A stretch of DNA of 53,899 nt, filler included, from Stramenopiles sp. TOSAG23-6 (GCA_900128565.1; 3 parts of 3 records of this genome joined end to end with filler, not necessarily neighbours in it); one strand, 5' to 3'; positions 5,911 through 53,899 are shown, counted from the whole stretch's first letter. The notes: generated from the sequence alone by a model not told the origin. A program made the numbers and translations.

Positions 5911-7776
5911 ATGACGTATACGGCAGCACACAAAATATTGAATACCTTACTTTACTTATATTTGTTGTCTTCTGTTTTCTTCTCACAAAAGATTCTCACT
6001 AAAGCTGCAACAAAAAGTCGGCCTGTAAAACAAAAGAATACTGCAAGCAACAACTTCAAAGGTCCTTTTAAGGATAAAAATGTTTATCTTTTATATGATT
6101 CATATCACATGGACGATATGAACGAACAAAGAAATACAATGCTGAGAGTATTTGAAGTAGCAGAATATATTGGAAGACTCAATGTATTCAACCTCACTGT
6201 AGTAATTCCGCGGATCCGACTTCAAAAAGAAGTCAACGGTTCAGAGAGAAAAGATTCCGAGGATTCTGATTCATTATTCATAGCTCCCTCTACGTATTAC
6301 AACATAACAACAACGTTAACGGATGCCTCTGCAAGCTTTACAGTGATGGATTTCCAAGTATATAATGAGTTACAGGTAAAAGAAGATAATGTAGATGCTT
6401 CGAAACAACCTTTGTCAATGGTTCCTCTACTTTGGGTTACAAACGTAAAGAAGAAGAATTGGACGAAAGCTCGAAAGAGGACTGACGACAAAACTTTCCA
6501 GTTTTCTAGATATCAAAAGTTTTGTCAAAAAAATCGAATGAAACACCCTGGAAAATTTCCCACTGAACAATATGGTAATAAAGTACCATTCAGCGGTGTT
6601 GAGTTAACTGTAGAAGCTATTATATGCAGAAAGAATTATTGGGGTGTCAAAGAATATATGGCAATTATAGAACATTTACTGCATTATGGTGCGATTGCAT
6701 TTCCTGAGCTTAGTCTTTCTTCGCATATTTACAAGATTGGATCAAATGAATTGAAGGATTCGTCCCAGATGCATCCGATCAGTTATATATTTCATAAATC
6801 ATTTCAATATAATGAAAAGTATATAGAGATAGTGATACAGTGGTTAGGCGATTTACAAAATAAAAACGGTACTGTAGAATCAAGCATTGATAATTCTGGG
6901 AAAGCAAATGATAATTCTGGGAAAACAAATGAGGGAAACAACCACATCCAAAATAGTTATAAAATTGTAAACAGAGTACCTATAGTATTATTTACTGCAA
7001 TACATTGGGTTAATGAAAAAGACCATACGTCAAAGTCAACGAATCTTGATGATATAGACAATAAGCATGAAGACATAATGCAGCCATTTGGTTTTGTTGG
7101 TGGTGTTCCACAGATTATGTTTTCATTTGGAGATATTTCAGATGGTCTAATACGTTTCCTACGTCGAAATAATGACACTTTGCAAAAATTTTACGTCTTT
7201 ACTAGAGACAAAAAAGAATGGGTGAAACTTCAAGAAGATATCAACAAAAAAGCATCGAAACATCGCCTCACATATGAAGTTGATGATTTATTTTTACCGC
7301 AATTTACAGTAGCAGATTTGCAAAAGTATCAAATGATCAATGATGTATATCAGCATGAAGATGAAGGTATGAGCGATGTTATAAACAAAGTGGAGATTTC
7401 TATTATTGAACAATGCATTTGCCTTCTTGCTCAAAAGTTTTATGGTACCTATAAATCCTCATTTTCAAAGATAATACACGAAATGCGAAAGTATAATACT
7501 ATGTATGGTATTCCAAACCAACCACAAGAAACAATAACGAATCTGTACGTTATTCATAATGTATTTCATTTTTTTTCCATAGAGAATTCTATACCTAACA
7601 AAAAATTTTAAAAAAATTTTAAATATTTTTCACAATGCTTACGGACTAAACTTTTTCCTGACCATGGCGGATTTGCCGGTTATCGTGCTGGTGAAGAATT
7701 AGAGTTTGTAAATGGCGTCGTTAAACCGAAAGGAAAGGCTAGCAAAAGAGTTAAACTCTTTGATCCGGAACTATAG
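5911..7776 (+). CDS. POFUT2-like (GT68/O-FucT fold) protein, ~589 aa (exons 5911-7544, 7641-7776)
   Basis: N-terminal hydrophobic anchor; motifs YLLYD, FTAIHW, KFYVFT and ISIIEQCICLLAQKFYGTYKSSFSKIIHEMR resemble POFUT2. After intron removal the C-terminus reads ...ETITNLRTKLFPDHGG...KLFDPEL*. Confidence 0.7.
7545..7640 (+). other. Non-canonical family intron, GT...TT, 96 nt
   Basis: CT|GTACGTTATT...ATACCTAAC...AAATATTTTTCACAATGCTT|ACGG; phase 2; contains an in-frame stop. Confidence 0.8.
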
Positions 7777-8085
7777 GAATTAAAAAAAAAAGTAAAATAT
7801 TTTATTACATACAAAATTTGGTACAAAAAATTAAAAAATTAAAATAACAAAATTAAGGGAATATTTAGAGTTAAGATTCCCATGAATTCAAATATCGTAT
7901 ATAGTGTAGTATATAGTATTATATATTTTATAAAAAAGATATGAAATCAATCAATCAATCAATCAATCGAACGAAATCTTTCTTTTTTGTTTTGTTACAA
8001 TGTAAACATTGAAATGCAGAATTTCATGTTTGCTTCAAGGTTACCAGGTACTTGGAGTTGAATGTGACATTATAAGGTATAAAAA

Positions 8086-8886
8086 TTATCTCCCTACGAC
8101 ATGAATTGTAACTTCAGTTTTCATAGTATTGTTTCCAGCCACCACATTATTCTTTTTCGTAATTTCTGCACATATTAATAAAAGTATACTACATATATAT
8201 GCAATTAAGAAAATAAAGAAACCTGGAAGAAGTTCAGTTTCTTCGGAAGGTTCTTTAAAACGTTTTCTTAAAATATCAAAATATGTTGCAAAACTTAAAA
8301 CATAAGTAGTTGTAAACCCACAAAAAACTGCGTAAATATTCCAAGTTTGATATTGTTTTGTTTTTATCTCAAGATTTGTTTTGTAGGATGTTCCATGCCT
8401 CTTTTTGTAAACCATACTCCACAATGTTGACGTCACTACACATGTTGTAGTTATTGTTAGTAGTAGACAAATGATTTGAACAAGAATTAACTCAATCTTT
8501 CCATGAATTGTCGAAAACATTTTTTCAGATAACGCACATTTCCCTTGACCACAAACCTGCCACAGATGTATTTTTAAGAGAAAACTTAGTTTATGGTGCC
8601 TCCGTGTCCAATAATTTGTATATGGCAAATTCATGATTGGTACAAATTGAAGAGTAATTAGACAAATTGAAAGTAAGCTTTGAATTATTAACATAAAAAT
8701 CTTAATTTGTCGCGAATTATTAATATGAAAACAATTGCATTCACAATTGCATTCATCTTTCAACTCTTCACGTATATATTGAAATACAAAACCACCAATA
8801 ATCAGAAGTGCAAAACTTAAATAAAAAGCAACACGATATTTTTTCGAATAGGACTCCGTATCTCCGAGTTCTGCAAAGTGTCTTGG
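8086..8886 (-). CDS. Multi-pass membrane protein, claudin/PMP22-like (last exon only; mirror of 9088-9888)
   Basis: Several hydrophobic segments and an LWQVC...C motif. Confidence 0.55.
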   Translation of the reverse strand, partial: PRHFAELGDTESYSKKYRVAFYLSFALLIIGGFVFQYIREELKDECNCECNCFHINNSRQIKIFMLIIQSLLSICLITLQFVPIMNLPYTNYWTRRHHKLSFLLKIHLWQVCGQGKCALSEKMFSTIHGKIELILVQIICLLLTITTTCVVTSTLWSMVYKKRHGTSYKTNLEIKTKQYQTWNIYAVFCGFTTTYVLSFATYFDILRKRFKEPSEETELLPGFFIFLIAYICSILLLICAEITKKNNVVAGNNTMKTEVTIHVVGR

Positions 8887-8948
8887 ATGGATTGTAAAAT
8901 ATATTATTAGAAAAAAATTGATGTTTTCGTTAGGTACACATTTTTGTA

Positions 8949-8986
<38 letters not shown>

Positions 8987-9014
8987 AAAAAANTNAAATT
9001 TTAAAAATTAAAAA

Positions 9015-9087
9015 TTTTTTTTTTGTACAAAAATGTGTACCTAACGAAAACATCAATTTTTTTCTAATAATATATTTTACAATCCAT
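9015..9087 (+). other. 3' part of a non-canonical family intron (ends AT); 5' part lost at the fold-back
   Basis: TTTTGTACAAAAATGTGTACCTAAC...TATATTTTACAATCCAT|CCA AGA CAC. Confidence 0.7.
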
Positions 9088-9888
9088 CCAAGACACTTTG
9101 CAGAACTCGGAGATACGGAGTCCTATTCGAAAAAATATCGTGTTGCTTTTTATTTAAGTTTTGCACTTCTGATTATTGGTGGTTTTGTATTTCAATATAT
9201 ACGTGAAGAGTTGAAAGATGAATGCAATTGTGAATGCAATTGTTTTCATATTAATAATTCGCGACAAATTAAGATTTTTATGTTAATAATTCAAAGCTTA
9301 CTTTCAATTTGTCTAATTACTCTTCAATTTGTACCAATCATGAATTTGCCATATACAAATTATTGGACACGGAGGCACCATAAACTAAGTTTTCTCTTAA
9401 AAATACATCTGTGGCAGGTTTGTGGTCAAGGGAAATGTGCGTTATCTGAAAAAATGTTTTCGACAATTCATGGAAAGATTGAGTTAATTCTTGTTCAAAT
9501 CATTTGTCTACTACTAACAATAACTACAACATGTGTAGTGACGTCAACATTGTGGAGTATGGTTTACAAAAAGAGGCATGGAACATCCTACAAAACAAAT
9601 CTTGAGATAAAAACAAAACAATATCAAACTTGGAATATTTACGCAGTTTTTTGTGGGTTTACAACTACTTATGTTTTAAGTTTTGCAACATATTTTGATA
9701 TTTTAAGAAAACGTTTTAAAGAACCTTCCGAAGAAACTGAACTTCTTCCAGGTTTCTTTATTTTCTTAATTGCATATATATGTAGTATACTTTTATTAAT
9801 ATGTGCAGAAATTACGAAAAAGAATAATGTGGTGGCTGGAAACAATACTATGAAAACTGAAGTTACAATTCATGTCGTAGGGAGATAA
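9088..9888 (+). CDS. Multi-pass membrane protein, claudin/PMP22-like (5' truncated)
   Basis: PRHFAELGD...; about 5 hydrophobic helices; HLWQVCGQGKC resembles the claudin GLW-C-C signature. Confidence 0.55.
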   Translation, partial: PRHFAELGDTESYSKKYRVAFYLSFALLIIGGFVFQYIREELKDECNCECNCFHINNSRQIKIFMLIIQSLLSICLITLQFVPIMNLPYTNYWTRRHHKLSFLLKIHLWQVCGQGKCALSEKMFSTIHGKIELILVQIICLLLTITTTCVVTSTLWSMVYKKRHGTSYKTNLEIKTKQYQTWNIYAVFCGFTTTYVLSFATYFDILRKRFKEPSEETELLPGFFIFLIAYICSILLLICAEITKKNNVVAGNNTMKTEVTIHVVGR

Positions 9889-10197
9889 TTTTTATACCTT
9901 ATAATGTCACATTCAACTCCAAGTACCTGGTAACCTTGAAGCAAACATGAAATTCTGCATTTCAATGTTTACATTGTAACAAAACAAAAAAGAAAGATTT
10001 CGTTCGATTGATTGATTGATTGATTGATTTCATATCTTTTTTATAAAATATATAATACTATATACTACACTATATACGATATTTGAATTCATGGGAATCT
10101 TAACTCTAAATATTCCCTTAATTTTGTTATTTTAATTTTTTAATTTTTTGTACCAAATTTTGTATGTAATAAAATATTTTACTTTTTTTTTTAATTC

Positions 10198-12063: not shown

Positions 12064-12491
12064 ACTAGTAGATATGTCTACTTCCTTTGAAATATAGTTT
12101 TATGGTTCAGTAGAGGATAGGTGTAAATAGTTGCAGAGTACTACTATGGTACGCTGTATATTGTGTTAGTCGTTGTAATATTCGTATCTTTCTTAAAAAA
12201 AAACGTATTTTTTATTTTTCGGTTTCGTAACTTTCGTTCGGGTTTCAAAAAATATTTTGCGCTTTTTCTCGGAGAGTGAAAAGAATTACTCCTCTCTCTC
12301 TCTCTCTCTCTCTCTTTTGGTTCCATTAAAAGTTGGATTAAATTGTTTTCTGTTTTATTGTAGATCATTCTAACAATTACTGTATTCACCTACTCTTGTG
12401 AATATAGACTTTTACAATAGTGGAAGAGTTGATTGTACGTTTATAGTAGAAGTAGCCTTGTAACGTTTTCATAATTCGTAAAAATAGAGAA

Positions 12492-15400
12492 ATGAAACAT
12501 ACGACCACGTCTCTTAGCGGTATTCCGCCTCATGTACACAATCTTATTGAATCTATTACTCGAACTCAAAAGTTATACCAGAGACGATTGCAAGAGGCAG
12601 AGTATCAAATACGTACATTATTTAAAAAGGAATTTTTCCAAGAACACAACTGTAAAAGTATCCCAGAACATACTTTTGCTAAAAATCTAGTTAATCAAAA
12701 GAGTGAAATAAGTAAACTTGAACTGTTTGAAATTCCTTTACGGAAATTGCTACTTTCTGTGAGGAGAAAGTTCAGTAGACTATTGAAAGAAGAAAGGTCA
12801 ATTATTTGTAAATATTGTATTTCTATTGGTTTAAACCCAAAAAATCTTCCTATTCAATTCCAAAGAAATTGTAACCCTAACCCTAATTTTGATACACAAT
12901 GTTTGTTGTCCCACCAACAAAACTCTTTCAATATAAAACAAAATAAAGAAAGCATAGCTCAGCCAAACTCTATTCAAACAACATCATTCAATACTACTCC
13001 TGAATACGATGATAATCGATATAATTCGTCTAGTACGAATGACGAAATTAAAAATGACGACTATAACCCTAACCCTACCCAAAATTGTAGTCAGGTCACA
13101 AATAATGCTACAAAAATATTCTTTGAACCGTCTGTCCTACAATTAAACACATTTGAAACGAAATATAGGGATTGTATTATACTCATAGAAAAATATAAAA
13201 AGACATTACTTGACTTACAAATGAAACATTTTCATCAAACAAAGTTATTGCAACAAAAAAATGAAAAAATAACTTTGGAGAAAGACAAAATTGAAAATGA
13301 ATTTCAAAATTACAAGACTAAAAAAAAAACAGAAATAATTTTTTTGGAACAAAATATAAAAAGTAAAGACACTTATATCAATGAACAAAACTGTATTATC
13401 GAACAAGTCAATGAAAAACTAAAACATTGTGAAAAAGACAAAAAAGAAGAAATGCTTGAAGTTACAAATCATTTTCAAAACACGAAAAAAGAAGAAATTC
13501 TTGAAGTAACAAACAAATTTCAAAAACAATTTGATACTTTATCAGTAGATCATGCAAATATGAAAGAAACTATACGACATGAAATACAGAAAAGAGAGGA
13601 AGCAGAGAAATATACTACAGAAATTGAAAAAAGTGCACAATTATTAGTGAAAATGTAAAGTTGTATGAATTGATTTTGTTTTCAAATTTTTTTCAAATTT
13701 TTTTCAAATTTTTTTTTGTACCTAANANTTTTTTTTTTTTTTTNCTTCACAATACATGCATAATAATTTTGAAGAAAACGCAAATAAAAGAAATAACATT
13801 TTGGAAGAAAAATATTTAAATCAAATTCAAGATAAACAAAACATTCAAAATATACATCAAAAAATAGAATTAGAATCCGAACAGGTTTGTCATACAAATA
13901 CTGAAATGATGAAACAAATTTCAGTGTATCAACATGAAATCCAAAATGTAGAAAATTCGTTACATACTGTTGAAACACGAAATATTGCTTTAGTTGCAGC
14001 GGATGTGATACAGAAACACGAAATCAATAATTATTTGACATTGAAGCAAAAGTGGGAAAATATAAAAAATACATATAAAAAACAAGAAAAAAATTATAAA
14101 ATAGAAATTCATACGTTGGATACTCAATATGGTGCGTATGAGAACGAATCGCGGACACTTGAAAGAAAACTTGAAAAAATGAATAAATTAGAAATTGAAG
14201 AAAAAAAAAAGAAAAAAAAATTGGTTGACAATTTACTAGAGAAAATAAAATCAAAAAACGAAATTATAAAAAAATGTAATTATGAAAAAAATGAACATCA
14301 AATTGTAGAAAAAGAAATGAAAATGTACTTGGAGAATTATTATAAAGAAAGTCAATTATATCGTGATTCAATAGAATACACTGAAGAATTACGTAGAGAT
14401 TTTGTATATGAAACAGAACAACACGAAAAACAACAAAAATATGAAAAACAACAAAAACACGAAAAAGATAAATTGCAAGAGGAAATAAAACATCAAATTG
14501 TATCATTAAACAATATAGAAATAACAGACCATAAAAAAATAGAAGAAATTAAAAACTTGAAAATAAAACAAAAACAACAAAAAATGAAATTCATCAATTT
14601 TGAAACGTCAAATGAAAAAATAGTACAAAAAATGGTACAAAATTATAAATTGGCTCAAGAAAAGTATGAAAATATTGTCGAAGAAAAAAAACATTTACTT
14701 GATAAAATTGAAAATTCAACTGAATCGGACGGTTTAAAATTGATTGTATTGAAAAATCTTCAAGCACAACAAAAACAACAAAATTCTGTTGAACATGAAC
14801 AAAACCACGAAATTTCAAAATTGCACGTGGAAATTTCAAAATTGAAAATGGATTTCCGCGACAAAGAAAAATCATGTATAGACTTACAACACGAAATGAC
14901 ACGAAATAAACATGATTTTGGAGAATATAAGATAATGGAAGCAGAATGCCAATTTAAGTTATTATTACAAAATCGACATCTCTTGGAACAAAAATCTAAA
15001 GAAAAATTGAACTTTGTATGTTTTTCATCATGAATTTCGAATTTATTTTTTTTTCATCATGAATTTCGAATTTATTTTTTTTTCATCATGAATTTTAGTT
15101 TCGATTTTTTTTTTTTTTTTTAAATGCCAGTTTGTCACTGTTTGTATACAATATCGTTTTTGTTTTACATGTATTTATTCTAATAAATATTTTAAATTTG
15201 ACAAAATATTTTTCCTCATTAAATGCAGAAAAAATTCAAAAAAATGAAAAAATAACAGAAATGGCAACAGCAAATTTTTTACAAAATAAAAATTATGTGT
15301 CTATATTAGAAAAAAATTTATATGAAGAGGAAAATGCATTACGTATGTTGGAAAGTCAAATAAAAAGGGATAAAGATTTGTACGTTTTCAAAATTGATTT

Positions 15401-16188
15401 TTTTTTTTTTTTATAGTAAATTTCGTACCTAACAAAACATTTTGACTACAAAAATAAAATATATTTTTCCATAATAAATGCATGAAAAACATTTTGCTTC
15501 ACAAGTAACTAAATTGTCCAAAACTTCTTCTGAATGTCAAACTTTACAAAATGAATTCGAATTGCTTCAAAATAATTATGATAATCAAAATCAAAATTCA
15601 ATTAAAATGAAAAAAAAACTGTTACAATATGAGAATAATTTGGAAACAGAACGAAATGAAACTCATCAATTAATTAGTGAAATGTGGGACAAATTGGAAC
15701 AAAAAACATGTTTGTTCCAAAATAAATTGGAACAAAAAACATGTTTGTTCCAAAATGAAATGAAAGAATTAAAATATCAAAACGAACAATCAAAAAAGAC
15801 GATAAAAATAGTAAAGAATATGAATGAATATCAATATAGTAACGAAAATACATTTCGTGTTTTATGTGGAAACCCTAACCCTACAGTTAATGATTGTCTT
15901 GTGAAGATTAGAAATTTAGAAATGAATACTGAAAAAATTCAAAAAAATCATAGAATTAGAATGTCTGCTGCAGCAAAAGTAGTTGATATGCTTCAAAATG
16001 CTGAAAACAAAATTGCACAATTGGAAAAAGAGGTACGAAAAAAAAACAGAAAAAAAATCACGAAATCTGATACAAGCACGAAATATCACAATCAATTGGA
16101 AAACGACTGTAGTACTGAAAATAATACAAAACATATGCAAATCATGTCATCCTGTGATCCAATGTATTTTGTAAATAATTCCGAATAA
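12492..16188 (+). CDS. Large coiled-coil protein, ~1094 aa (exons 12492-13654, 13758-15015, 15225-15379, 15480-16188)
   Basis: Junctions read LLVKM-HNNF, KLNF-AEKIQ and KDL-HEKH; total 3285 nt = 1095 codons. Confidence 0.75.
13655..13757 (+). other. Non-canonical family intron, GT...AT, 103 nt
   Basis: AAAAT|GTAAAGTTGT...TGTACCTAA...CTTCACAATACAT|GCAT; phase 2. Confidence 0.8.
15016..15224 (+). other. Non-canonical family intron, GT...AT, 209 nt (expanded, internal tandem repeat)
   Basis: TTT|GTATGTTTTTCATC...TATTCTAAT...AAATATTTTTCCTCATTAAAT|GCA GAA; phase 0; divergent 3' motif. Confidence 0.65.
15380..15479 (+). other. Non-canonical family intron, GT...AT, 100 nt
   Basis: GATTT|GTACGTTTTCA...TTTCGTACCTAAC...ATATTTTTCCATAATAAAT|GCAT; phase 2. 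Confidence 0.8.
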
Positions 16189-17747: not shown

Positions 17748-17784
<37 letters not shown>

Positions 17785-17972: not shown

Positions 17973-17973
17973 T

Positions 17974-36059: not shown

Positions 36060-36122
36060 TACGAAATTTTGTACCTAACAAATTTTAGTTTTTTTTTTTT
36101 GAAATATTTTTCCACAATATAT
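36060..36122 (+). other. 3' part of a non-canonical family intron at contig start (ends AT)
   Basis: TACGAAATTTTGTACCTAAC...GAAATATTTTTCCACAATATAT|GTA TTA TTT. Confidence 0.75.
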
Positions 36123-38422: not shown

Positions 38423-39611
38423 ATGCGACGTCGACTTTTGAAAGAGGCAGCGGCTTTATCAGAGCCAACGTATGGGTGTCCATCTCTTCATTTTGGATCA
38501 ATGACTTTTGGTTGGGCACAAGCCTCTTCAAAAGTAGATGATGCAGTAGCTTCAGAAATGTTAGAGCATTTCTCAAAAGCAGGACTTGGCACACATTTTG
38601 ATACAGCTCGCATTTATGCGTCAGGAGAATCAGAAACAATGGCAGGAAGGATTAGACCTAGTGGTCTGTTGGGTGAACAATTTAGAGTGGTAACAAAAGC
38701 ACATCCAAGTCAAAAAGATGGTTTATCAAAGAAAGGGTTGTGTTTTCAACTTGAGAAATCAATGGACGCTCTACAACTAAAGCATATTCCTGTACTTTAT
38801 CTACATCAACCAGATCCTGAAAATCCATTAGAAGAAACATTAGAAGCATTAGAAAGCTTAATTGAAGATGGTGTAATCGGTACTGTAGGTTTAAGTAATT
38901 ATTCTGCTGCAGAGGTAGAAAGGGCAGTTGAATTATGCAATTCACATGGTTGGTATAATGCTTTACCAACTGTCTATCAAGGATTATATTCACCTTTGAA
39001 TAGACGCGTCGAAACTGAATTATTACCAACACTCCGTGCGTATGATGTATCATTCGTTGCATATAACCCATTGGCAGGGGGAATGCTTTCTGGTAAATAT
39101 TTAAAACAGGAAAATGATCAAAACAATGTCCCAAATGTATTTTTTTCATGTACCATGTTTCGATTTTGTTTTAGTACGAAATTTTGTACCTAACAGATTT
39201 TTTTTCAAAAACAAATATTTTCTTACAATACATGGACGTTTCAAAGATAATCCAAATTATTTAGATCGATTTTATAAAAAAGATGTTTTCGCTGCAGTAC
39301 AATTATTACAAGAATCATGCAATAATCAAAACGATGAATTAAGTCTTACACAAGCGTCTTTTTCTTGGATGATGAATCATTCAATGCTTGGTAAAAATGA
39401 TGGCATTTTAATTGGAGCATCAAAAATTGAGCATCTAATTTCAAATTTGAATTGTTGTGAAGCAGCACAACCACTGTCACCTGTAGTTTTGGATGCATTT
39501 GATAAGGCATGGGAAATAACAAAGGAAGATTCATTTCTATATTTTCGTGGTTATTCAAAAGATATGCCACCAGAATTAAGAAACGGAGACGGTGCTACTT
39601 ATCAGGTTTAA
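38423..39611 (+). CDS. Aldo-keto reductase, AKR7A/aflatoxin aldehyde reductase-like, ~363 aa (exons 38423-39136, 39234-39611)
   Basis: FDTARIY, VTKAHP, LYLHQPD, GLSNY, PTVYQGLY, AYNPLAGG, ILIGASK; junction NNVPN-GRFKDNPNYLDRF. Confidence 0.9.
39137..39233 (+). other. Non-canonical family intron, GT...AT, 97 nt
   Basis: CCAAAT|GTATTTTTTT...GTACGAAATTTTGTACCTAAC...AAATATTTTCTTACAATACAT|GGACGT; phase 0. Confidence 0.88.
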
Positions 39612-39780: not shown

Positions 39781-41763
39781 TCACCGGTTTGGACCAACAA
39801 CACTACGAAGAACTTCCGTCGGGCTTTCTTCTATTAAAACGTTCATTGCTTCATCATTAGCTACCACAAGATATCCTGCAAAACCTAAACTATTCGTACC
39901 AATTTTTATATTTTGCTTCTCACAAAATCCTGAAATACGTGGAGCTACAAGCATCCAACGTTTTGTGAAAACTAAGCTGTAGCTCGGGCAACTTAGATCA
40001 CTTGTTCGATCATGGATTATGAAAAAATATTTCAAAAAAAATCGTTAGGTACAAAATTTCGTACGAAAAAAAAATTCAAAATTGAAATGAAAACGTACAA
40101 TTCCTTCATTTGTTGATTGTAAAGTATTTATATACGTATCTTGATTCATTGCATTACTTTTAAACAAAAGCTTTTTATAGTATTTCATTAACATAGCAAC
40201 TGTTGGGAAGCCATTGAATAATACACATGCATGTATTGTGAAAAAATATGTAATTCAAAATGGGTCAAAAAAAATCATTAGGTATGAAATTTCGTATGAA
40301 AAAAAAATAAATTTGAAATTCATGGTGAAAACATACATGCGGAAAGTTAAAACTATCAATCTTAAAAGGAATGCCTTTTTTATATTCATACTTTTTTGCT
40401 GTATTGAACATGCTGAATTCGATTGGAATCTCAATAGGACCGTTCCCACTTACATGAATATTTGTTTTTTCAGATAAAGAACTATACATTGTGAAAAAAT
40501 ATTTTTTTTTTTCGTAAAAAAAAATTGTTAGGTATAAAATGTACTATAAACCAAAAAATTACTATAAAAAAAATCATGATGAAAACATACTTCTCTAAGA
40601 ACCTTTTTCAAAATTCTAATTGGTACAGCTTGCATATGTTTATGTTTTTGAGATGCACCTGACGCAGGGCCTCCATTGAAGTATACCATGTATTGTGTGA
40701 AAAAACACGAAATCACAAAAAATATCGTTAGGTACAAAATTTCGTACGAAAAAAAAATTGAGTTGAAAAAAAAAAAAAAAGATACATGGCATTAACATCT
40801 CGTAATAAAATATGAGCTGCACTAAAGTCGTTTTGATCAAGTAAACTGGACTGCGGTGAAAAATTGCGAGTGACTAAAAGTAGATGCTCATCAAAGTATT
40901 TTGAAAAAATATGTTTATATTTGAAATTCGTTAGTTTATATTTTATGATTTTTTTTTTAAAGTAAAAAGAATAAATTTGAAAAGTTGAAAAAAAAAAACG
41001 GTTTTGTTTTCGTACGAAAAAAAATAAATTAAAAATTAAATTGGACAAAGTACAAGGCAGGAAATTTGTTTAAGAGTAAAACATGAGAACAATTTGGACC
41101 AAATTCTGGATCGATCACTAACCCTGGATCAGGGTCAGCAAATGGATCAAATGATTTTGTAGTTTTTTTTGTAGTTTTTTTTACACCTATTGTTCTGGAT
41201 TTTCTGTAGGCATTGAGAACAACAGAATTTATTTGAGATACAATAAACGAATTGCCTTTTTCATCTACGACTGAAATCGGAGAATGATGAAATTTTGATA
41301 TAGCTCTTGTCCGCTTTGCTCTGATATAACATTCTTTTATACTATTAAGTAGTTTTGTATTGCAATTTCTAACGTTATTATGATACCAGGCAATCATGGC
41401 AATTGCTGAACTTGAAAATAAAATGGTTGAATATCTGCGAGGAATTTTGAATATCGCAACAACAGATAACACAAAAAAAGAGAACAAACCAGTAGATGGC
41501 CATATTTCAACAATGGGTGATGATGACTCTGTTGTAAAATCAGGCGTACCAAAGACGGCTACAACCTTTTGTTTTATGGCAGCTTGTAAAATATCATCTG
41601 AACTATAAAGCTGTTTACCCTCCGAGACAAGACGAGTTCTTTCTCGAGACAACCGAAACCGATCACAGAGCTGCAACCAAGGGTCCGTATTACCATCAAT
41701 AGGAACTTTGCATTCTAGCCCTTTGAAACGTGCACATAATAGAATAGGTTCCAATATTTGCAT
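39781..41763 (-). CDS. Ap4A phosphorylase / ATP adenylyltransferase (Apa1/2-like) with N-terminal extension, ~474 aa (exons 41763-41054, 40893-40786, 40687-40591, 40483-40337, 40230-40099, 40011-39781)
   Basis: Spliced product contains FDPFADPD, LLLNKFPAFDEHLLLVTRNF.PQ..LL...DF, YFNGGPASGASQKHKHMQ (HxHxQ), SYSLVFTKRWMLVAPR, NSLGFAGYLVV; total 1425 nt. Confidence 0.9.
40012..40098 (-). other. Non-canonical family intron, GT...AT, 87 nt
   Basis: GGAATT|GTACGTTTTC...CGTACGAAATTTTGTACCTAAC...TATTTTTTCATAATCCAT|GATCGA; phase 0. Confidence 0.85.
40231..40336 (-). other. Non-canonical family intron, GT...AT, 106 nt
   Basis: CCGCAT|GTATGTTTTC...CATACGAAATTTCATACCTAAT...TATTTTTTCACAATACAT|GCATGT; phase 0. 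Confidence 0.85.
40484..40590 (-). other. Non-canonical family intron, GT...AT, 107 nt
   Basis: AGAGAA|GTATGTTTTC...TATACCTAAC...AATATTTTTTCACAATGTAT|AGTTCT; phase 0. Confidence 0.83.
40688..40785 (-). other. Non-canonical family intron, GT...AT, 98 nt
   Basis: GCCAT|GTATCTTTT...CGTACGAAATTTTGTACCTAAC...CACACAATACAT|GGTATAC; phase 2; yields NAM-VYFNGG. Confidence 0.88.
40894..41053 (-). other. Non-canonical family intron, GT...TT, 160 nt
   Basis: GCCTT|GTACTTTG...CGTACGAAA...AACTAAC...ATATTTTTTCAAAATACTT|TGATGAG; phase 2; yields NKFPAFDEH. Confidence 0.88.
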
Positions 41764-42048: not shown

Positions 42049-43173
42049 ATGCTATTTTTCAAAGATTGGAAAATATTTGTGTTACTGCTAGTGATATCAC
42101 AGAAAACTCTATATGTGATATCCAAAGTTGACTGCCCTGAGTTAACGTTTTTCGAAGAGTATAAATCAGGATTAGATCAAGATAACCCCAATAGCCGACA
42201 GGTTGCTGTAGTAATGTTAGACGACCGTTCAATACTTCCCGTGGAAGGTAAATCAAAGTATAGTTTCTGGCAATATGCAATAGCTGTAAATCATGCGTAC
42301 ACTTCGGCGCATGGTTACTATTTTACACTTTTTCGACCACCAAATTCTTCTCAGTGTTCTGAGTCACATGATATCGAGGGAACTGTAGGTGCCAAACCTG
42401 TAACAGTTTCTACTCACTGGAATAAAGCGGCTGCACTTTTAACTGTAATGAGAAATTCCCAACTTAAATGCAATGATATTATTTTATATATTGACTCTGA
42501 TGCTGTTGTGAAGCGACAAGATATTGTACGTTTTATATGAATTTCTAATTTAATTTTTTTTCATACGAAATTTCGTACCTAACATTTTTTGTTGAAATAT
42601 TTTTTCACAATACTTACACCACTGGATTTTTTGCGAAAAGAGCGTAAAAATAATAGTGAACTAGCCAAAGAGTATCCTTGGAATGCGTCTAATATCGACA
42701 ATGCTTCAATTGTGGTAGCTGCAGGAGATAATGGAGATATGGGCGTGTGGATGCCATGGGGGTTCTCTGTTCAATGGGCTAATACAGGGGTGATGCTGCT
42801 ACGTAAATCTCGAGCCACAGAATTACTTCTTGAAGCTTGGCGAGATAGTACCTTTCGGGATGATATGACTTTTTATAGACAAAGATGGCCTTTTGATCAA
42901 GAAGCTTTTAATAGACTAATTTATCCTCCAAATAGAAACATGATTGCATTATTACCTATGGTTTCAATGAATAGTCCAAAAGGTCATTGGATTTCACATA
43001 TTTGGGGAGGTGAACGTGAAAAACGAGAAACTTATCTTAGACAGGCTGCAGAATCGCTTGGTCTGACTGACGATAAACTAAGAAGTACATTAGAAAATAT
43101 TAGTATTCAGCACTCAGAAGTTTTACCGCAGTGGATACCAAACACTCAAGGAAATATATGTAAAAGTAAATAG
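42049..43173 (+). CDS. Glycosyltransferase, GT34/GMA12-MNN10-like, ~344 aa (exons 42049-42525, 42616-43173)
   Basis: Signal peptide; motifs YTSAHGY, HWNK, LYIDSDA (DxD), NTGVMLLR, WPFDQEAF, ISHIWG; junction RQDI-TPLDFL. Confidence 0.82.
42526..42615 (+). other. Non-canonical family intron, GT...TT, 90 nt
   Basis: GATATT|GTACGTTTTA...CATACGAAATTTCGTACCTAAC...GAAATATTTTTTCACAATACTT|ACACCA; phase 0. Confidence 0.87.
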
Positions 43174-43260
43174 TATAAATTCTATGATTCATAATTTATT
43201 GTTTCTTAGTTTTGTTTCTTTTAATCAAGTAACTACAATATTCCACATTGTATTTGACAC

Positions 43261-50434: not shown

Positions 50435-52835
50435 CTAAAAAAGTGCATCCTTTGTTTGTTCGAGATTCGTATCGACAAATAAATCTCTTCCGTGAAGCAT
50501 TATACACAGCGCAGAAACATCGAGGTTTGTGAAAGTCTTTTTCCAGTGCTCACAAAGAGTCTCTATCTTCTGTTGCTCTTTTGGAATGGACCTAAATTTT
50601 TCTAATAGAAGCTGATCAAGTTTCTTCTGCAGCCAGTCTACATATAAAATAGATTCCTTTTTTTCTGATTGCCAGACACATTTTAATAATCTTCTTTCTT
50701 GAACATTAGCACCATGCCAAATCCAGCGTCGGTTTTTGTCGCGGTTACCTTGACATGTAATTTCCTGTGATAAATATTTTTCCAGCGCAAAGCCTCTTTT
50801 TTCAAGTTGGAGTCTATATTTTGGGGAAATATGTTTTACAGTTTGAAAAGCATTAGGTACGAAATTTGGTTAAAAAAAAATAAATTTGAAATGAATGATG
50901 AAAATATACATAATCCTTTGACGTTCTTTCATAGACACTGTAAATTTAGGTCCTGGTGCACTTGGCCAGTATTGAATGCCAGGGACAGCCTTATAAGCTG
51001 ACACTTTTGCCTTAGTTGCGGCATGTGCTGAAGTGACTGCAATAAATGCAGCTAATTTACTCACCGCTGCCGCTTTCGAAGGCCTTCCTCCACCTCGACG
51101 CCTCGCTCTCAGTAAAATACGTTCACGTTGTCGTATTTGATTTACTTGCATTATACATGAATCTAAGTAACTCGATGAGTTATTTCGAAAATTCTTCTTG
51201 AGACGATTCATCTTCTGAGTAGTTTTCGAATTAGACGAATTTTCATTGTTTTTGGTATGTTTAGTCGGTGGGAAAATATCTTCACCCTCGCCAACAAATC
51301 CATGAACTTTTCGAAGATGCTGTAAATACGACACATACACATGTATTTTGGAAAAATATTTCAAAAAACAATTCGTTAGGTACAAAATTTCGTACAAAAA
51401 AATCATACAAAAAAAAAAAATAAAACATTCATGTAATTCTAAATTTCGTATTTCGTTCTTAGAAAAACCAAGCTCATTAAAAAAACCTTTGCTTCCCTTG
51501 ATAATTTTAGATTTTTGTGGATTGTCTTCAAAGTAATGTGAATTTTTCACATTTAACCCAATTTGCGAACTTTTCGAGCAATGAAAACTTTGATTTGACA
51601 AACTGTCTAAAGATGTTTGATCATCAGATATACTAATACTAGAATAATCACTTTTGTTTGTTTTCTTCAATTTCCTCTTATCTCTTAATGCTTTTGTAGC
51701 GTCTCTCATACTACCAAAGTGTTTCGATGAAGCGAGTAGTTTTTGTAACATTTCTTCCATTACATCGCAACGATGACAAGAGTGTAGGTGATAAATTCGC
51801 ATTGATGCGAGCATTTTGAACATTTCTTTATCTCGTTTTTTCTTATCTGCCATTGAAATTTTCCAATTATTCGACGACAAAACATCATCAGACAAAACAT
51901 TTTCTTCCAATCTTTTAGATTGGAATTGTTCTTTTGGTGTAATGCCTGAACTTCTATTTGTACTATTATCATGCTTGTTAGTCTTTCTACATTGAAGAAT
52001 TTTAGGTGCTACAAGTTCAACGCACATTTCNTTACNAATANTTTTTTNGGGATANANTTTCTATCACCTTTCGTTTCCTTGCGTTTTCAGCATCCCGAGG
52101 TAAATCTTTTAATTGTTCCTGTAACTTTCTAAGTTCAATTGCAGCTTCAAGTCTAGTGTGAATAGAATATGCTTTAGATGTCATGTGATAATCAATTGGC
52201 TTGAGGAAAACACCTTGTTGTAGTGCCTTTATTTTAATTAGGTCTTCGGTTGTACTTTCAGAAGATTCTATATTACTCGTAGGGTTAGGGCTTTCAGCTT
52301 TAAAACAAGAGTGGATTTTAATTAAAGTTTTTTCATCATCAACAAAAATTCTATGAGAAATAATCGAACGAGGAGTATTGTTTTGATCATTGGCTTTGAT
52401 AAATCTTTCCATGATAATTGCATTTTTTTTTACGGGCTTCTTTATTTTACATGAATTCGTCCTATATTCCTGATATTTCCTAAATTCACTAAGAAAATGT
52501 ACCGAATCTTTCGTTACTGGAAGAACAACCATATCTCCAGGTTTCAAACGTTTTCGAAGGGATTGAGGAAGAAATCGTTTTGTACTTTTCAGGTAGGCAA
52601 AATAATCTGAAGAGGTATTTTTGTGAGTTTTAACACTTTTGTTTAGTTTCTTTTTAATGTTACTACTACTGGGAGCATATATGCGATATGTGCGTGCTAA
52701 ATGTACACCACTTACACCAGAACTAGTGCGGTTTAAATGGCGAATACCTACTGCTGCTAACTCAATTTGTGCTTGTTGAAGTGTTCCAACGAAAACCTTT
52801 TTCTTCTTCTTTGGCGATGAAGCTAGTTGGGGCAT
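50435..52835 (-). CDS. Large basic hypothetical protein (introns 51341-51430, 50814-50909; N-rich gap ~52031-52056)
   Basis: Last exon 50813-50435 is open (LQLEKRGFALEKY...KDALF*) in the phase set by intron removal. Confidence 0.6.
50814..50909 (-). other. Family intron with canonical ends, GT...AG, 96 nt
   Basis: ATTAT|GTATATTTTC...AAATTTCGTACCTAAT...CATATTTCCCCAAAATATAG|ACTCC; phase 2. Confidence 0.85.
51341..51430 (-). other. Non-canonical family intron, GA...AT, 90 nt (3n, stop-free)
   Basis: TTACAT|GAATGTTTTA...GTACGAAATTTTGTACCTAAC...GAAATATTTTTCCAAAATACAT|GTGTAT. Confidence 0.75.
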
Positions 52836-53113
52836 AGCTACTCTTTATTGATATTCATTGAGTTCCCCTCATGTCTATTATATTCGGAGAACTATAAACA
52901 TAAATTTATTGGATAAGCTATATTAAAAGAGGTATATCAATCAATCACCTTTTTGTATCTTTTCTTCGTCATCATCACAGTTACAATATTCGACTATTGG
53001 AGAAAAAATGGATTTCGTGTTTTTATTGCACAAATGTATCCAAAATGACATTGTATTCGTTTTCATTGATATAATATAAATATATATAGCTACTAATAAT
53101 ACATCGAAAAAAA

Positions 53114-53844
53114 TTAAATACCAAGCATCTGTTTGCGAAGCATTTCTTGTCTTTTTCTCTCTGCTTCAGCTCTAGCAGTTCTCTCAGCTTTTGCAAGCGC
53201 TTTGATACGTTTCAATTCAGTCTGAATTTCCTTCTTTTTTTTGGCTAATTTTTTATTTATCTCATCTTTAAACACTTTGTAATAATATTTACGAAATTCA
53301 TGTCTTGCTTTAAGCTCAAGCTCTTGTTTTCTCTTACGCGTATTTTCGAAATCATCCGCTGCCATGACAATTTTCTTGTTTCTGTACCTAACTTCTTGTT
53401 CGGGTAATTCTCTTAAAAACTTGTACTCAGACATCTCATCTCCACAATAATGTAAAAAGTCTTGTTTTGAGCCGGTAAGACTATTTGGAAATTCAGTATT
53501 TGTAGATCTTTGTTGGATTTTGTTTACTCTCCAATTACCATCAAATCTATATCTATTGTCATCATATACAAGACTACCTAGACCATGTCGTTTCCCATAT
53601 TTAAAATAACCTTGGTATGTATTGTGAAAAAATATTTTTTTAAATTTGTTAGGTACGAAATTTCGTATGAAAAAAAAATGAATTCGAAATTGAAAAAAAA
53701 TAAAACATACATATCCATTCTGCTCCGGCCCCTCGAAATAATTTTCTAGGTAATTTACCAGCTGTAATTGCATCTAGTCGACGCTGTTTTATTTCAGCTT
53801 GACGAATTTGTTCTTTTTCAACAAGCTCTTTTTTTGTACGAAAT
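53114..53844 (-). CDS. MORN-repeat/coiled-coil protein, C-terminal part (exons 53844-53711, 53616-53114)
   Basis: Spliced FRTKKELVEKEQ...RGAGAEWI-YQGYFKYGKRHGLGSLVYDDNRYRFDGNW (MORN motif). Confidence 0.75.
53617..53710 (-). other. Non-canonical family intron, GT...AT, 94 nt
   Basis: GGATAT|GTATGTTTTA...CATACGAAATTTCGTACCTAAC...AATATTTTTTCACAATACAT|ACCAAG; phase 1. Confidence 0.87.
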
Positions 53845-53899
53845 ATGTATTTTGGAAAAATATTTAAAAAAAAAAATCNAAAANAANTGTTAGGTACAA
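53845..53899 (-). other. 3' part of a non-canonical family intron at window end (ends AT)
   Basis: TTGTACCTAAC...AAATATTTTTCCAAAATACAT|ATTTCGT. Confidence 0.75.

What the first reader, a model, noticed from the sequence alone, without database searches (positions are those of the whole stretch)
7545..53899. Genome-wide family of non-canonical GT-AT/GT-TT introns that lack an AG acceptor
Seen: 17 unique intervening sequences (14 complete), mostly 87-107 nt, in 9 unrelated genes. Positions: 7545, 9087, 13655, 15016, 15380, 36122, 39137, 40098, 40336, 40590, 40785, 41053, 42526, 50909, 51430, 53710, 53845. They share GTAYGTTTT...poly-T...YRTACGAAATTTYGTACCTAAC...AAATATTTTTYCACAATAC-NN. Cutting from the GT to the dinucleotide after the CAATAC-like motif restores the frame in all 14 complete cases, across phases 0, 1 and 2. 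Final dinucleotide: AT x13, TT x3, AG x1. All 17 are in the sense orientation of the host gene. Known: U2 introns nearly always end in AG; repeat-derived non-canonical introns are described in only a few lineages (e.g. Fritillaria, Amoebophrya, euglenids). Inference: this organism routinely splices an AG-independent intron class defined by a conserved branch site and a CAATAC-type 3' motif, which may require a modified spliceosome.
Basis: partly seen in the sequence, partly recalled or inferred. Interest (0 to 1): 0.96.

Follow-up and report, generated by a model that had tools for sequence, protein, structure and literature searches.

The report
Mobile-element introns without AG acceptors
An uncultured marine stramenopile carries a repeated ~100-base intervening sequence in many genes; it starts like a normal intron but must be cut after AT or TT rather than AG to restore the proteins, though removal at RNA level has not been seen directly.

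Summary
A profile scan finds 17 unique copies of one ~90-107 nt family (two longer), all inside coding sequence and all in sense orientation, in 9 genes.

Cutting from GTAYGT to the second base after the CAATAC-like block restores the frame in 14 of 14 complete copies. The last two bases are AT x13, TT x3 and AG x1.

Homology fixes the junction to the residue in 4 cases and supports a fifth by motif:
- aldo-keto reductase
- three junctions in Ap4A phosphorylase
- a MORN repeat

An independent seawater DNA run has the same elements at the same sites. About 8% of contigs in the best-holding DNA run carry the family. The elements are therefore neither an assembly artefact nor local.

Exons match 100% a protein labelled as a MAST-3 stramenopile assembly. 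That published model mis-splices this intron.

Best reading: introner-like, transposon-derived spliceosomal introns with a non-AG 3' end.

Not shown: RNA-level splicing. The two RNA runs gave no listed bridging contig, and one contig retains an intron end. The cut register (GT-AT versus AT-AC), the spliceosome type and the mobility mechanism are also open.

One ordinary GT-AG intron coexists. I found no published description. This is a new variant of a known kind.

The parts
7545..7640 (+). Family copy, 96 nt, GTACGT...CACAATGC-TT, phase 2, in an O-fucosyltransferase-like gene. The mirror duplicate is at 10429-10334 (-).
   Evidence: (E 2e-12). No in-frame AG within 100 nt downstream.
9014..9087 (+). 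3' part of a copy cut by the palindrome centre, ending ...ACAATCC-AT. The exon of a membrane-protein ORF starts at 9088. Mirror at 8960-8887 (-).
   Evidence: E 1.5e-5
13655..13757 (+). Copy, 103 nt, GTAAAG...CACAATAC-AT, phase 2, in a coiled-coil gene. It has an internal 11-nt x3.4 tandem repeat. Mirror at 4319-4217 (-).
   Evidence: (E 3.4e-8)
15016..15224 (+). Divergent long copy, 209 nt, GTATGT...CTCATTAA-AT, phase 0. Its 5' module of 29 nt is repeated 2.6 times in tandem. Mirror at 2958-2750 (-).
   Evidence: (E 0.015, 5' half only)
15380..15479 (+). Copy, 100 nt, GTACGT...CATAATAA-AT, phase 2, in the same coiled-coil gene. Mirror at 2594-2495 (-).
   Evidence: (E 8e-14). No in-frame AG within 100 nt downstream.
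36060..36122 (+). 3' part of a copy cut by the contig linker, ending CACAATAT-AT. A WD40-protein exon follows.
   Evidence: (E 1.2e-8)
39137..39233 (+). Copy, 97 nt, GTATTT...TACAATAC-AT, phase 0, in the aldo-keto reductase gene.
   Evidence: (E 2.5e-19). The GT..AT model scores 474.9 bits, against 464-471 for in-frame shifts, 455.0 for the published model and 307.3 for the retained form. The junction reads VPN|GRFKDNPNY like the homologues.
40012..40098 (-). Copy, 87 nt, GTACGT...CATAATCC-AT, phase 0, fifth intron of the Ap4A phosphorylase gene.
   Evidence: (E 5e-17). The junction lies in a variable region and cannot be tested by homology.
40231..40336 (-). Copy, 106 nt, GTATGT...CACAATAC-AT, phase 0, fourth intron of Ap4A phosphorylase.
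   Evidence: (E 2.3e-19). The conserved ...F-P-H|A-C aligns with F-P-H|G-C of the closest homologue.
40484..40590 (-). Copy, 107 nt, GTATGT...CACAATGT-AT, phase 0, third intron of Ap4A phosphorylase. An AG 2 nt further on is out of frame. An in-frame AG lies 54 nt further on.
   Evidence: (E 7e-12)
40688..40785 (-). Copy, 98 nt, GTATCT...CACAATAC-AT, phase 2, second intron of Ap4A phosphorylase.
   Evidence: (E 5.9e-19). Pfam PF19327 positions run 135 to 138 across the junction with no gap.
40894..41053 (-). Divergent long copy, 160 nt, GTACTT...CAAAATAC-TT, phase 2, first intron of Ap4A phosphorylase.
   Evidence: (weak: E 0.14 and 0.81 for the two ends). PF19327 positions run 98 to 102 without a gap; 17 of 17 homologues are ungapped at LLNKFPA|FDEHLLLVTR.
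42526..42615 (+). Copy, 90 nt, GTACGT...CACAATAC-TT, phase 0, in a glycosyltransferase-like gene.
   Evidence: (E 2e-17). An RNA-library contig (X8, record 24) covers 42586-42819 without a break at the boundary.
50814..50909 (-). Copy, 96 nt, GTATAT...CAAAATAT-AG, phase 2. It is the one copy with AG in the terminal column.
   Evidence: (E 5.8e-11)
51341..51430 (-). Copy, 90 nt, GAATGT...CAAAATAC-AT, phase 0. It starts GA and has no in-frame stop if retained, so it may be exonised.
   Evidence: (E 1.4e-14)
53617..53710 (-). Copy, 94 nt, GTATGT...CACAATAC-AT, phase 1, in a MORN-repeat gene.
   Evidence: E 7e-18. The AT junction rebuilds Y-Q-G-x-F-x-x-G-K-x-H-G, the start of a MORN repeat. The in-frame AG 6 nt further on would delete it.
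53845..53899 (-). 3' part of a copy cut by the window end, ending CAAAATAC-AT, upstream intron of the same MORN gene.
   Evidence: E 2e-4

Best explanation
These are introner-like introns. A short non-autonomous mobile element has spread, in sense orientation, into the coding exons of many genes of an uncultured marine stramenopile, labelled MAST-3 by the best protein match.

Each copy brings these modules:
- its own donor (GTAYGT)
- a T-run
- a small palindrome (GTACGAAATTTCGTAC) overlapping a branch motif (TACCTAAC, core CTAAC) 32-47 nt from the end
- a second T-run
- a conserved end block (ATATTTTTTCACAATAC)

The transcript is restored by removing everything from the G of GTAYGT to the second base after that block, which is AT in most copies.

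Those last two bases mirror the two exon bases in front of GT (AT or TT in 13 of 15). The element ends GTATGT/ACAATAC are complementary. The simplest model is therefore a 2-bp target duplication flanking a short inverted repeat. Splicing then takes out the element plus one duplicate, which forces the 3' cut to fall behind a non-AG dinucleotide.

Shown: the family, its orientation, the exact length and position of what must be removed, and its presence in independent DNA.

Inferred: removal is by the spliceosome at RNA level, most likely the major one to judge by the donor and branch motifs, with a second step that tolerates A-U or U-U at the acceptor. Transposition as the means of spread is also inferred.
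For: Family and orientation
- 17 of 17 unique copies are sense and inside CDS.
- Median pairwise identity is 69%, range 45-87%.
- Conservation peaks at the donor, the central T-run/palindrome/branch block and the 3' block.

What must be removed
- The frame is restored in 14 of 14 complete copies. An in-frame stop follows retention in 13 of 14.
- AKR: an HMM of 59 homologues scores the GT..AT model best (474.9 bits against 464.4-470.6 for +-3/6 nt, 455.0 for the published GT-AG model and 307.3 retained). The junction is ungapped against 14 of 14 displayed homologues.
- Ap4A phosphorylase: Pfam coordinates are continuous over junctions 41053 and 40785. Alignment with 17 full-length homologues is ungapped in 17 of 17 at 41053. 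The conserved His falls at the end of exon D for 40336.
- MORN start motif at 53710.

AG alternatives
- Three of the 12 AT/TT copies analysed (7545, 15380, 39137) have no in-frame AG within 100 nt downstream.

Real DNA, genome-wide
- Contigs from an independent seawater DNA run (X2) hold exons C, D and E each flanked by element ends at the same sites.
- 1829 of 22991 records in run X1 and 5210 records in X2 lie on the 4.9-kb stretch, almost all on the elements.

The genes are live
- 15 of 25 coding differences between the window and X2 are synonymous. This includes 6 of 6 in the exons just downstream of family introns (AKR exon 2, Ap4A exon E), read in the predicted frames.

Flank signal
- AT or TT precedes GT in 13 of 15 copies, against 28.6% of all GT sites (P 5e-6).
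- The ends pair at 4-6 of 6 positions in 12 of 13 copies.

Another sample
- The same family, with the same AT|GT...AC-AT|G ends and a restored frame, is in an unrelated metagenome contig (L001).
Against: No spliced RNA was seen. Among the pieces and joints that one search listed (29 pieces shown, 9135 not; 15 joints shown, 183 not), no contig of RNA runs X8 or X9 bridges a junction.

X8 record 24 (234 nt, depth 3.3) runs unbroken from inside intron 42526 into the exon. In all, 795 X8 contigs lie on the stretch, mostly on elements. That means either unspliced RNA or DNA carried into the library.

No same-organism transcript fragment of the AKR gene exists in the protein collection (best identity 58%).

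Nine of the 12 AT/TT copies analysed have some in-frame AG within 100 nt downstream. For 40590 the AG at +54 gives a loop length like the homologues, whereas the AT junction implies an ~18-residue insertion.

Copy 51430 starts GA and could simply be translated.

The direct-repeat signal is not significant against shuffled pairing: 2 nt identical in 9 of 15, against 6.9 expected, p 0.14.

RNAalifold finds no conserved structure in 12 copies.

Only 18 copies were available for study.
Confidence: 0.6

Rival explanations
1. Same elements and same mRNA product, but the chemical cut sites lie 2 nt to the left. The introns would then be AT-AC (ATGTATGT...CAATAC), possibly handled by a minor (U12-like) spliceosome, whose 3' end choice is known to be loose.
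For: In 7 of 15 copies the exon bases before GT are AT and the block ends AC, so the AT-AC and GT-AT registers give the identical mRNA.

This register would also rescue copy 51430, which lacks GT.

Passages read in two papers:
- Non-canonical U12-type introns in Physarum include GT-AT (17%) and AT-AT, and may derive from a transposon with a TA target.
- Blastocystis, also a stramenopile (its closeness to MAST-3 is recalled, from no call), has 253 minor introns, 77% of them AT-AC.
Against: Eight of 15 copies are not AT-AC in that register. They read CT-GC, TT-AA x2, TT-AC x2, TT-CC, AA-GT and AT-AT. The GT register is uniform by comparison: GT in 14 of 15, and T as last base in 14 of 15.

The donor is GTAYGT, not [AG]TATCCTT.

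The branch-like motif has a CTAAC core and lies 32-47 nt from the end. The motif and distance of U12 introns, as quoted, are TTCCTTRAC within about 45 nt, usually much closer.

Minor snRNAs could not be sought: no genome is held, and there is no snRNA in the window.
Confidence: 0.15
2. The elements are ordinary GT-AG introns whose true acceptors are AGs further downstream or upstream. On this view the AT/TT rule is a by-product of frame counting.
For: In-frame AGs exist within 100 nt downstream in 9 of the 12 AT/TT copies analysed.

At 40590 the +54 AG fits homologue length better. At 51430 a T-rich ...TTTACAG lies 21 nt downstream in frame.

One copy (50909) does end in AG. A normal GT-AG intron exists at 16504-16878.
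Against: At 39137, 7545 and 15380 there is no in-frame AG within 100 nt.

At 41053, 40785 and 40336 the in-frame AGs would delete conserved blocks that align without gaps to 17 homologues and to Pfam.

At 53710 the +6 AG removes the MORN start.

The published GT-AG model of the AKR gene scores 20 bits lower than the GT..AT model and contains 20 element-derived residues.

At 40590 the first AG after the branch motif is 2 nt past the AT and gives a stop after 3 codons.
Confidence: 0.05
3. The elements are removed from DNA, like ciliate internal eliminated sequences, rather than from RNA.
For: The excision needed is precise, short direct repeats sit at the borders, and no spliced RNA was seen.
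Against: The elements are present in bulk DNA of the best-holding run and of an independent seawater metagenome at the same sites. No DNA contig joining across an element appears among the joints listed (15 of 198 joints were shown).

The borders are not TA.

Strict sense orientation, a GTAYGT donor and a CTAAC branch motif are RNA-splicing signals, which a DNA excisase would not need.

From my own knowledge, with no search run on it, nuclear dualism is not known in this group.
Confidence: 0.04
4. The elements are not removed at all. The host genes would be pseudogenes, or the elements would be amplification or assembly artefacts.
For: The window does contain gross artefacts: inverted self-duplications and contig joins inside elements. 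An RNA-library contig retains an intron end.
Against: An independent DNA run and an independent metagenome contig carry the elements.

Exons on both sides stay open and conserved. Differences from the second population are mostly synonymous (15 of 25; 6 of 6 in exons downstream of introns).

Thirteen of 14 copies would truncate the protein.
Confidence: 0.02

Closest known systems
Introner elements of Micromonas and Aureococcus, and the wider 'introner' class (transposon-generated introns). The original papers are recalled. I read passages of PMC12130899 and the discussion in PMC7789003.
   Same: Many near-identical short introns at unrelated sites in unrelated genes, in genes and in sense orientation. 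The element carries its own splice signals. Splicing removes the element plus one copy of the target duplication, so the coding sequence is restored. The host is a marine protist.
   Different: Those families use GT-AG (or other accepted pairs). The curation rule quoted treats only AG and AC as acceptable 3' ends. Here 16 of 17 copies end in AT or TT. The inverted repeat here is only 6-7 bp and the target duplication is at most 2-3 bp. No autonomous partner and no empty site were seen.
Repeated non-canonical introns of Amoebophrya (PMC7789003, passages read)
   Same: Repeat-family introns with non-canonical ends, short direct repeats overlapping the exon-intron borders and complementary ends. 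They are MITE-like, with no transposase inside.
   Different: In Amoebophrya neither end is conserved, the inverted repeats are 8-20 nt and the hairpin is proposed to join the exons. Here the donor GT and a branch motif are conserved, the complementary ends are 6 bp with a bulge, and no consensus fold is predicted.
Non-canonical introns of Fritillaria borealis and relatives (PMC13326754, abstract read; Henriet 2019 recalled)
   Same: Most introns in the genome escape the GT/AG rule and are removed by the major spliceosome. The origin is linked to mobile elements (recalled).
   Different: The host is an animal. Both ends vary. Duplicated, divergent U2AF subunits are shown to bind the odd 3' ends. 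Here the 5' end is canonical, and U2AF could not be examined.
U12-type introns with non-canonical ends, for example in Physarum (bioRxiv 10.1101/2020.10.12.336362, passages read) and Blastocystis (PMC10639083, passages read)
   Same: GT-AT and AT-AT ends occur. There was mass gain, possibly from a transposon with a 2-bp target. The 3' end dinucleotide is loosely specified.
   Different: The U12 donor ([AG]TATCCTT or TATCTTT) and the branch motif close to the 3' end are absent here.
Non-conventional introns of euglenids and diplonemids (PMC12621601, listing only; the rest recalled)
   Same: Non-GT/AG borders and pairing of intron ends.
   Different: Those lack a conserved donor and are defined by a stable end-to-end structure. 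Here the donor is canonical and no stable structure is predicted.

Membership tests
Introner (transposon-derived intron family) | Many similar intron sequences at non-homologous sites in unrelated genes | tested here: met
   17 unique copies in 9 genes plus one in another metagenome contig. 1829 of 22991 records of run X1 lie on the 4.9-kb stretch, nearly all on elements.
Introner (transposon-derived intron family) | Copies are removed from transcripts by splicing | tested here: inconclusive
   Protein-level continuity is shown at 5 junctions. No RNA junction appears among the listed contigs, and one RNA-library contig retains a boundary.
Introner (transposon-derived intron family) | Transposon hallmarks: terminal inverted repeats, target-site duplication, presence/absence polymorphism | tested here: inconclusive
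   The ends GTATGT/ACAATAC pair at 4-6 of 6 positions in 12 of 13 copies. WT precedes GT in 13 of 15 (P 5e-6). Copy-specific duplication is not significant (p 0.14). No empty site was found.
Major (U2-type) GT-AG intron | GT (or GC) at the 5' end with an extended donor consensus | tested here: met
   GT in 14 of 15 complete copies. GTAYGT in 9 of the 13 aligned copies (9 of 15 complete copies).
Major (U2-type) GT-AG intron | Branch motif CTRAY upstream of a pyrimidine tract | tested here: met
   CTAAC or CTAAT lies 32-47 nt from the end in 13 of 14 window copies, followed by T-runs. The branch point itself was not mapped.
Major (U2-type) GT-AG intron | AG at the 3' end | tested here: not met
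   AG in 1 of 17 copies, AT in 13 and TT in 3.
Minor (U12-type) intron | Donor [AG]TATCCTT | tested here: not met
   The donor is GTAYGTTTT. In the shifted register it reads ATGTATGT.
Minor (U12-type) intron | Branch motif TTCCTTRAC close to the 3' end | tested here: not met
   The motif is TACCTAAC at 32-47 nt. Nothing U12-like lies nearer the end beyond a loose TTTTTCAC.
Minor (U12-type) intron | Minor snRNAs and proteins present in the genome | not testable with these tools
   No genome is held. Rfam finds nothing in the window.
Euglenid/Amoebophrya-type structured non-canonical intron | A stable helix bringing the two intron ends together (8-20 nt) | tested here: not met
   RNAalifold on 12 copies gave 0 pairs. 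Only a 6-bp bulged complementarity is seen.
Ciliate-type internal eliminated sequence | TA-bounded, absent from somatic DNA | tested here: not met
   The borders are WT|GT...WT|. The elements are present in the bulk DNA of two runs.

The most novel reading that the evidence does not exclude
In this stramenopile lineage an active DNA transposon makes introns whose acceptor is its own 2-bp target duplication (AT or TT). The spliceosome sets the 3' cut by position: two bases beyond the element's terminal block or helix, about 35-45 nt past the branch. It does not read AG. Such introns make up the great majority of the genome's introns (17 of 18 in this sample). This would be a free-living protist with routine AG-independent second-step selection alongside normal AG use.
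Probability: 0.4. Interest if true: 0.85.

Novelty: new variant of a known kind. Interest (0 to 1): 0.72.

Why it matters
If RNA data confirm the junctions, this gives a compact natural system for two questions: how a 3' splice site can be chosen without AG, and how transposons seed introns.

The system has useful properties. The donor and branch motifs are canonical. Only the acceptor is odd. The copies form a graded series (AT, TT and one AG in the same column). There are also two copies where a nearby AG competes: 40590 out of frame, and 53710 in frame 6 nt on.

It adds a heterotrophic stramenopile lineage to the few groups with repeat-derived non-canonical introns.

There is a practical consequence already. 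Gene callers that insist on GT-AG mis-model these genes. The public protein P0001 lacks 15 true residues and carries 20 element-derived ones. The family's density is about one copy per 2-3 kb (17 in 36.8 kb of unique window; 1829 element-bearing records in 5.17 Mb of run X1). At that density a large share of this organism's published proteome is likely affected.

Tried and rejected
RNA evidence
They cover few exons at depth 1-5 and show no listed joint at a predicted junction. Absence of cover says nothing.
- A search for short same-organism protein fragments that might cross the AKR junction found none (44 hits, best 58% identity).

More copies
- The core 20-mer was scanned in three collections.
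  - Metagenome contigs gave one locus, L001.
  - Prokaryote genome contigs gave one hit in a Bacteroidales MAG. That is a chance match, because the flanks are unrelated.
  - Viral contigs gave none.
- The window's own genome is not held, so no census, snRNA search or U2AF search was possible.

Other dead ends
- There is no consensus RNA fold, no Rfam family and no tRNA in the window.
- A reading of the whole element as a long hairpin was rejected by eye, from the sequences printed. Both halves carry T-runs, which cannot pair.
- Helitron-like, Tc1/mariner-like (TA) and 3-4 bp (ATG/CATG) duplication registers were considered by eye. CATG flanks both ends in 4 of 15 copies and ATG in 6 of 15. None fits better than the 2-bp register.

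Literature
- Searches returned no paper linking introners or non-canonical introns with MAST lineages.
- Passages found with the terms intron, splice and canonical in PMC5778133, PMC8163842, PMC12614181 and bioRxiv 10.64898/2026.04.17.719054 do not mention such introns.
Gene-structure tables there, and the species lists of introner surveys, could bear on the novelty claim.

Full report
WHAT THE WINDOW IS

Self-comparison shows that 1-8959 is the exact reverse complement of 9015-17973, and 18074-25995 of 28038-35959. The three blocks are separated by 44 N, TTAATTAATTAA and 44 N.

So the window is three contigs strung together. Two of them are inverted self-duplications of the kind that whole-genome amplification produces. 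Unique sequence is about 36.8 kb at 33% G+C.

The palindrome centre at about 8987, the start of the third contig and the window end all fall inside copies of the element. This is what one expects where an assembler meets a high-copy repeat. No whole genome is held.

WHOSE DNA IT IS

The ORFs are eukaryotic:
- aldo-keto reductase, Ap4A phosphorylase, pseudouridine synthase, MORN and WD40 proteins, and an O-fucosyltransferase-like protein
- long ORFs that from their sequence look like a calpain-like protease, a cGMP-dependent kinase-like protein and an HSP70, which I did not scan against Pfam
- EF-hand ORFs

The reductase exons are 100% identical to a public protein whose source label reads GSMAST32.ASY1.ANO1.1648.1. 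That label points to a MAST-3 marine stramenopile assembly. The next best hit is 78% identical. The stretch 38300-43200 is held by seawater and marine metagenome runs.

THE OBSERVATION

Every position in the finding is real.

An alignment of 13 copies gives this layout: xWT | GTAYGTTTTCA ... ATTTTTTTTTC-RTACGAAATTTYGTACCTAAC-RATTTTTTTT ... AAATATTTTTTCACAATAC-AT | G.

A profile of it finds 15 unique copies at E<1e-3 and two divergent ones (15016 and 41053). Nothing significant appears on the antisense strand of a gene, between genes or in the second contig, which has long uninterrupted ORFs.

Exact coordinates, lengths and phases are and under 'parts'. The terminal dinucleotide, taken from the alignment column, is AT x13, TT x3 and AG x1.

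WHAT MUST BE REMOVED

Frame and stops:
- Cutting from the G of GT to that dinucleotide restores the frame in 14 of 14 complete copies.
- If the element stayed in, 13 of 14 would hit an in-frame stop inside it.

Frame counting fixes length only modulo 3, so I sought residue-level tests.

(a) Aldo-keto reductase
- The junction gives ...NNVPN|GRFKDNPNYLDRF.
- Fourteen displayed homologues read ...V[PLA]x|GRFKDNxNYL with no gap.
- An HMM of 59 homologues scores this model at 474.9 bits. In-frame shifts of 3 or 6 nt score 464.4-470.6, the public gene model 455.0 and the retained form 307.3.

(b) Ap4A phosphorylase, five family introns
- Pfam PF19327 coordinates run 98 to 102 and 135 to 138 across junctions 41053 and 40785, which leaves exactly the residues present.
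- Against 17 full-length homologues, LLNKFPA|FDEHLLLVTR is ungapped in all 17.
- ...A|MVYFNGGPASGASQKHKH matches the commonest spacing.
- Exon D ends on the conserved ...F-P-H, followed by A-C, like F-P-H|G-C in the closest relative.

(c) MORN gene
- The AT junction rebuilds Y-Q-G-Y-F-K-Y-G-K-R-H-G, which Pfam aligns from position 1 of the repeat.
- An in-frame AG 6 nt on would remove Y-Q.

Junctions 40590 and 40098 lie in variable loops and cannot be judged this way.

IS IT REAL DNA, AND HOW COMMON?

In an independent seawater DNA run (X2), contigs cover 40075-40305, 40310-40512 and 40566-40716. Each holds one short exon with the ends of the elements on both sides, and shows a few single-base differences from the window.

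Of the 22991 records in the best-holding run X1 (5.17 Mb), 1829 lie on the 4.9-kb stretch, nearly all on elements. In X2 the figure is 5210. That is about one element-bearing record per 2.8 kb of X1, close to the window's 17 copies per 36.8 kb.

The tool warns that summed depths are not copy numbers, so I use record counts only as an order of magnitude: hundreds to thousands of copies.

A further copy with the same ends and a restored frame sits in an unrelated metagenome contig (L001 2578-2475).

ARE THE HOST GENES ALIVE?

Of 25 coding differences between the window and X2, 15 are synonymous. All 6 that fall in exons immediately downstream of family introns are synonymous in the predicted frame. 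Roughly a quarter would be expected without selection (my estimate, not computed). These differences come from contigs at depth about 5.5 and may include errors.

RNA

This is the weak point.
- Both RNA runs hold little of the stretch.
- Among the rows that one search lists, no RNA contig joins across an element.
- X8 record 24 runs from 30 nt inside intron 42526 straight into the exon.
- 795 X8 records lie on the stretch, mostly on elements.
- X9, a poly(A) library, placed 5 records, 3 of them on elements.

This could be unspliced RNA or DNA in the library, and the tool itself warns of the latter. The protein collection holds no same-organism fragment of the reductase. Removal at RNA level is therefore inferred, not shown.

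WHICH CUT SITES?

The base before GT is T in 14 of 15 copies, and the two bases are AT or TT in 13 of 15. Among all GT sites in the unique sequence the figure is 28.6% (P 5e-6). The last two intron bases are also AT or TT.

Where the two pairs are the same (9 of 15), the cut could lie 0, 1 or 2 nt to the left with the same product. In 7 of 15 copies the shifted register reads AT-AC.

Across the family, though, only the GT register is uniform. In the shifted register 8 copies have odd pairs at both ends.

Copy-by-copy matching of the two pairs is no better than shuffled pairing (p 0.14 for 2 nt, 0.08 for 3 nt). That test has little power when the target is nearly constant.

The first six bases (GTATGT) can pair with the seven before the terminal dinucleotide (ACAATAC) with one bulged A. 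This gives 6 of 6 pairs in 4 copies and 4-5 in 8 more. That looks like a short terminal inverted repeat with a 2-nt overhang, but no compensatory change supports an RNA helix, and RNAalifold predicts none.

AG ALTERNATIVES

With the GT donor fixed, three of the 12 AT/TT copies analysed have no in-frame AG within 100 nt. Nine have one or more. Homology rules these out at 41053, 40785, 40336 and 53710.

At 40590 the picture is mixed:
- The first AG is 2 nt past the AT and gives a stop after three codons.
- An AG 54 nt on is in frame, and using it would make the loop the same length as in the homologues.
- That copy may therefore use AG, or the organism may have an 18-residue insertion.

Copy 51430 starts GA, is 90 nt long and has no in-frame stop. 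It may be translated rather than spliced.

Copy 50909 has AG in the very column where the others have AT. That argues that position counts more than the identity of the dinucleotide.

ORDINARY INTRONS

The EF-hand gene has a 375-nt intron, GTAAGT...CCTTAG, at 16504-16878. Its removal gives ...AVLEAMGQQ.... L001 shows another GTAAGT donor. The organism therefore also uses AG. In this sample the family accounts for 17 of 18 recognisable introns.

MECHANISM

The best-supported account is an introner: a non-autonomous mobile element that carries a donor, a branch motif and T-runs. It is inserted, or retained, only in sense orientation within transcribed sequence. It is removed by the spliceosome together with one copy of a 2-bp target duplication.

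The donor and CTAAC branch motif point to the major spliceosome. The U12 donor and branch motifs are absent.

From general knowledge of the second catalytic step, an A at -2 is kept in 14 of 17 copies, while the G at -1 is replaced by U. How AT is singled out in an AT-rich tail is unknown. The conserved CACAATAC block, or the fixed distance from the branch, are the candidates.

COMPARISON AND NOVELTY

See Closest known systems for the comparison. The nearest concept is the introner model, in which splicing removes the element plus one duplicate. The difference is the non-AG acceptor.

Amoebophrya and Fritillaria show that repeat-derived non-canonical introns exist, but there both ends vary. 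Physarum shows GT-AT ends in U12-type introns.

Six literature searches and passages from four papers on MAST genomes turned up no description of this family. Supplements could not be read.

VERDICT

This is a real, abundant and apparently undescribed intron family with a canonical 5' half and a non-AG 3' end. RNA proof and the machinery remain open.

Confidence in the main reading is 0.6. Interest is 0.72.

Noticed in passing
window 1-17973, 18074-35959, and linkers 17974-18073 and 35960-36059: The window is three contigs joined by N44-TTAATTAATTAA-N44 linkers. The first two are perfect inverted self-duplications with centres near 8987 and 27016, typical of amplification chimeras. The first centre lies inside a family element.
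   Followed up: yes
window 39093-39174 (public protein P0001): The public gene model of the aldo-keto reductase uses a forced GT-AG intron. It drops 15 true residues (GKYLKQENDQNNVPN) and translates 20 residues of the element (VRNFVPNRFFFKNKYFLTIH). Its HMM score is 20 bits below the GT..AT model.
   Followed up: yes
window 16504-16878 (+): An ordinary 375-nt GTAAGT...CCTTAG intron in an EF-hand (calmodulin/centrin-like) gene. It is the only conventional intron recognised in the window.
   Followed up: partly
window 51341-51430 (-): A family copy that starts GA instead of GT, is a multiple of 3 in length and has no in-frame stop. It is possibly an exonised, dead intron. A T-rich ...TTTACAG lies 21 nt downstream in frame.
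   Followed up: partly
window 15021-15095 and 13679-13715 (+): Internal tandem duplications inside two copies: a 29-nt 5' module x2.6 at 100% identity, and an 11-nt unit x3.4. The element body tolerates length change while its ends stay fixed.
   Followed up: partly
window 40430-40483 (-): Just downstream of copy 40590, exon D contains a GTAAGT and an in-frame AG 54 nt past the AT. This part of the protein is an ~18-residue insertion relative to 17 homologues, so the exon structure here is uncertain.
   Followed up: partly
window 4230-4248, 8993-8995, 13726-13744, 25077, 25096, 28937, 28956, 43313-43325, 48285-48315, 52031-52057, 53879-53887: Scattered single N, mostly in A/T-rich (homopolymer-like) sequence. 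At 48285-48315 and 52031-52057 they coincide with apparent frame changes between adjacent ORFs of one gene.
   Followed up: no
window 43369-44018 and 17397-17973: Coding tandem repeats: 15-nt x9.9, 36-nt x3 and 51-nt x2.2 in the minus-strand ORF 43261-44385, and Q-rich TTG/TGT runs at 17416-17784. NPNPN-type runs occur in several proteins.
   Followed up: no
L002 6187-6206 (-): An exact 20-mer match to the element core in a Bacteroidales MAG contig. The flanks are unrelated, so it is a chance hit.
   Followed up: yes
window 39612-39783: An RNA-library contig (X8 record 18, 39530-39810) spans the whole 170-nt spacer between the convergent reductase and Ap4A phosphorylase genes. This means either overlapping 3' ends or DNA in that library.
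   Followed up: no
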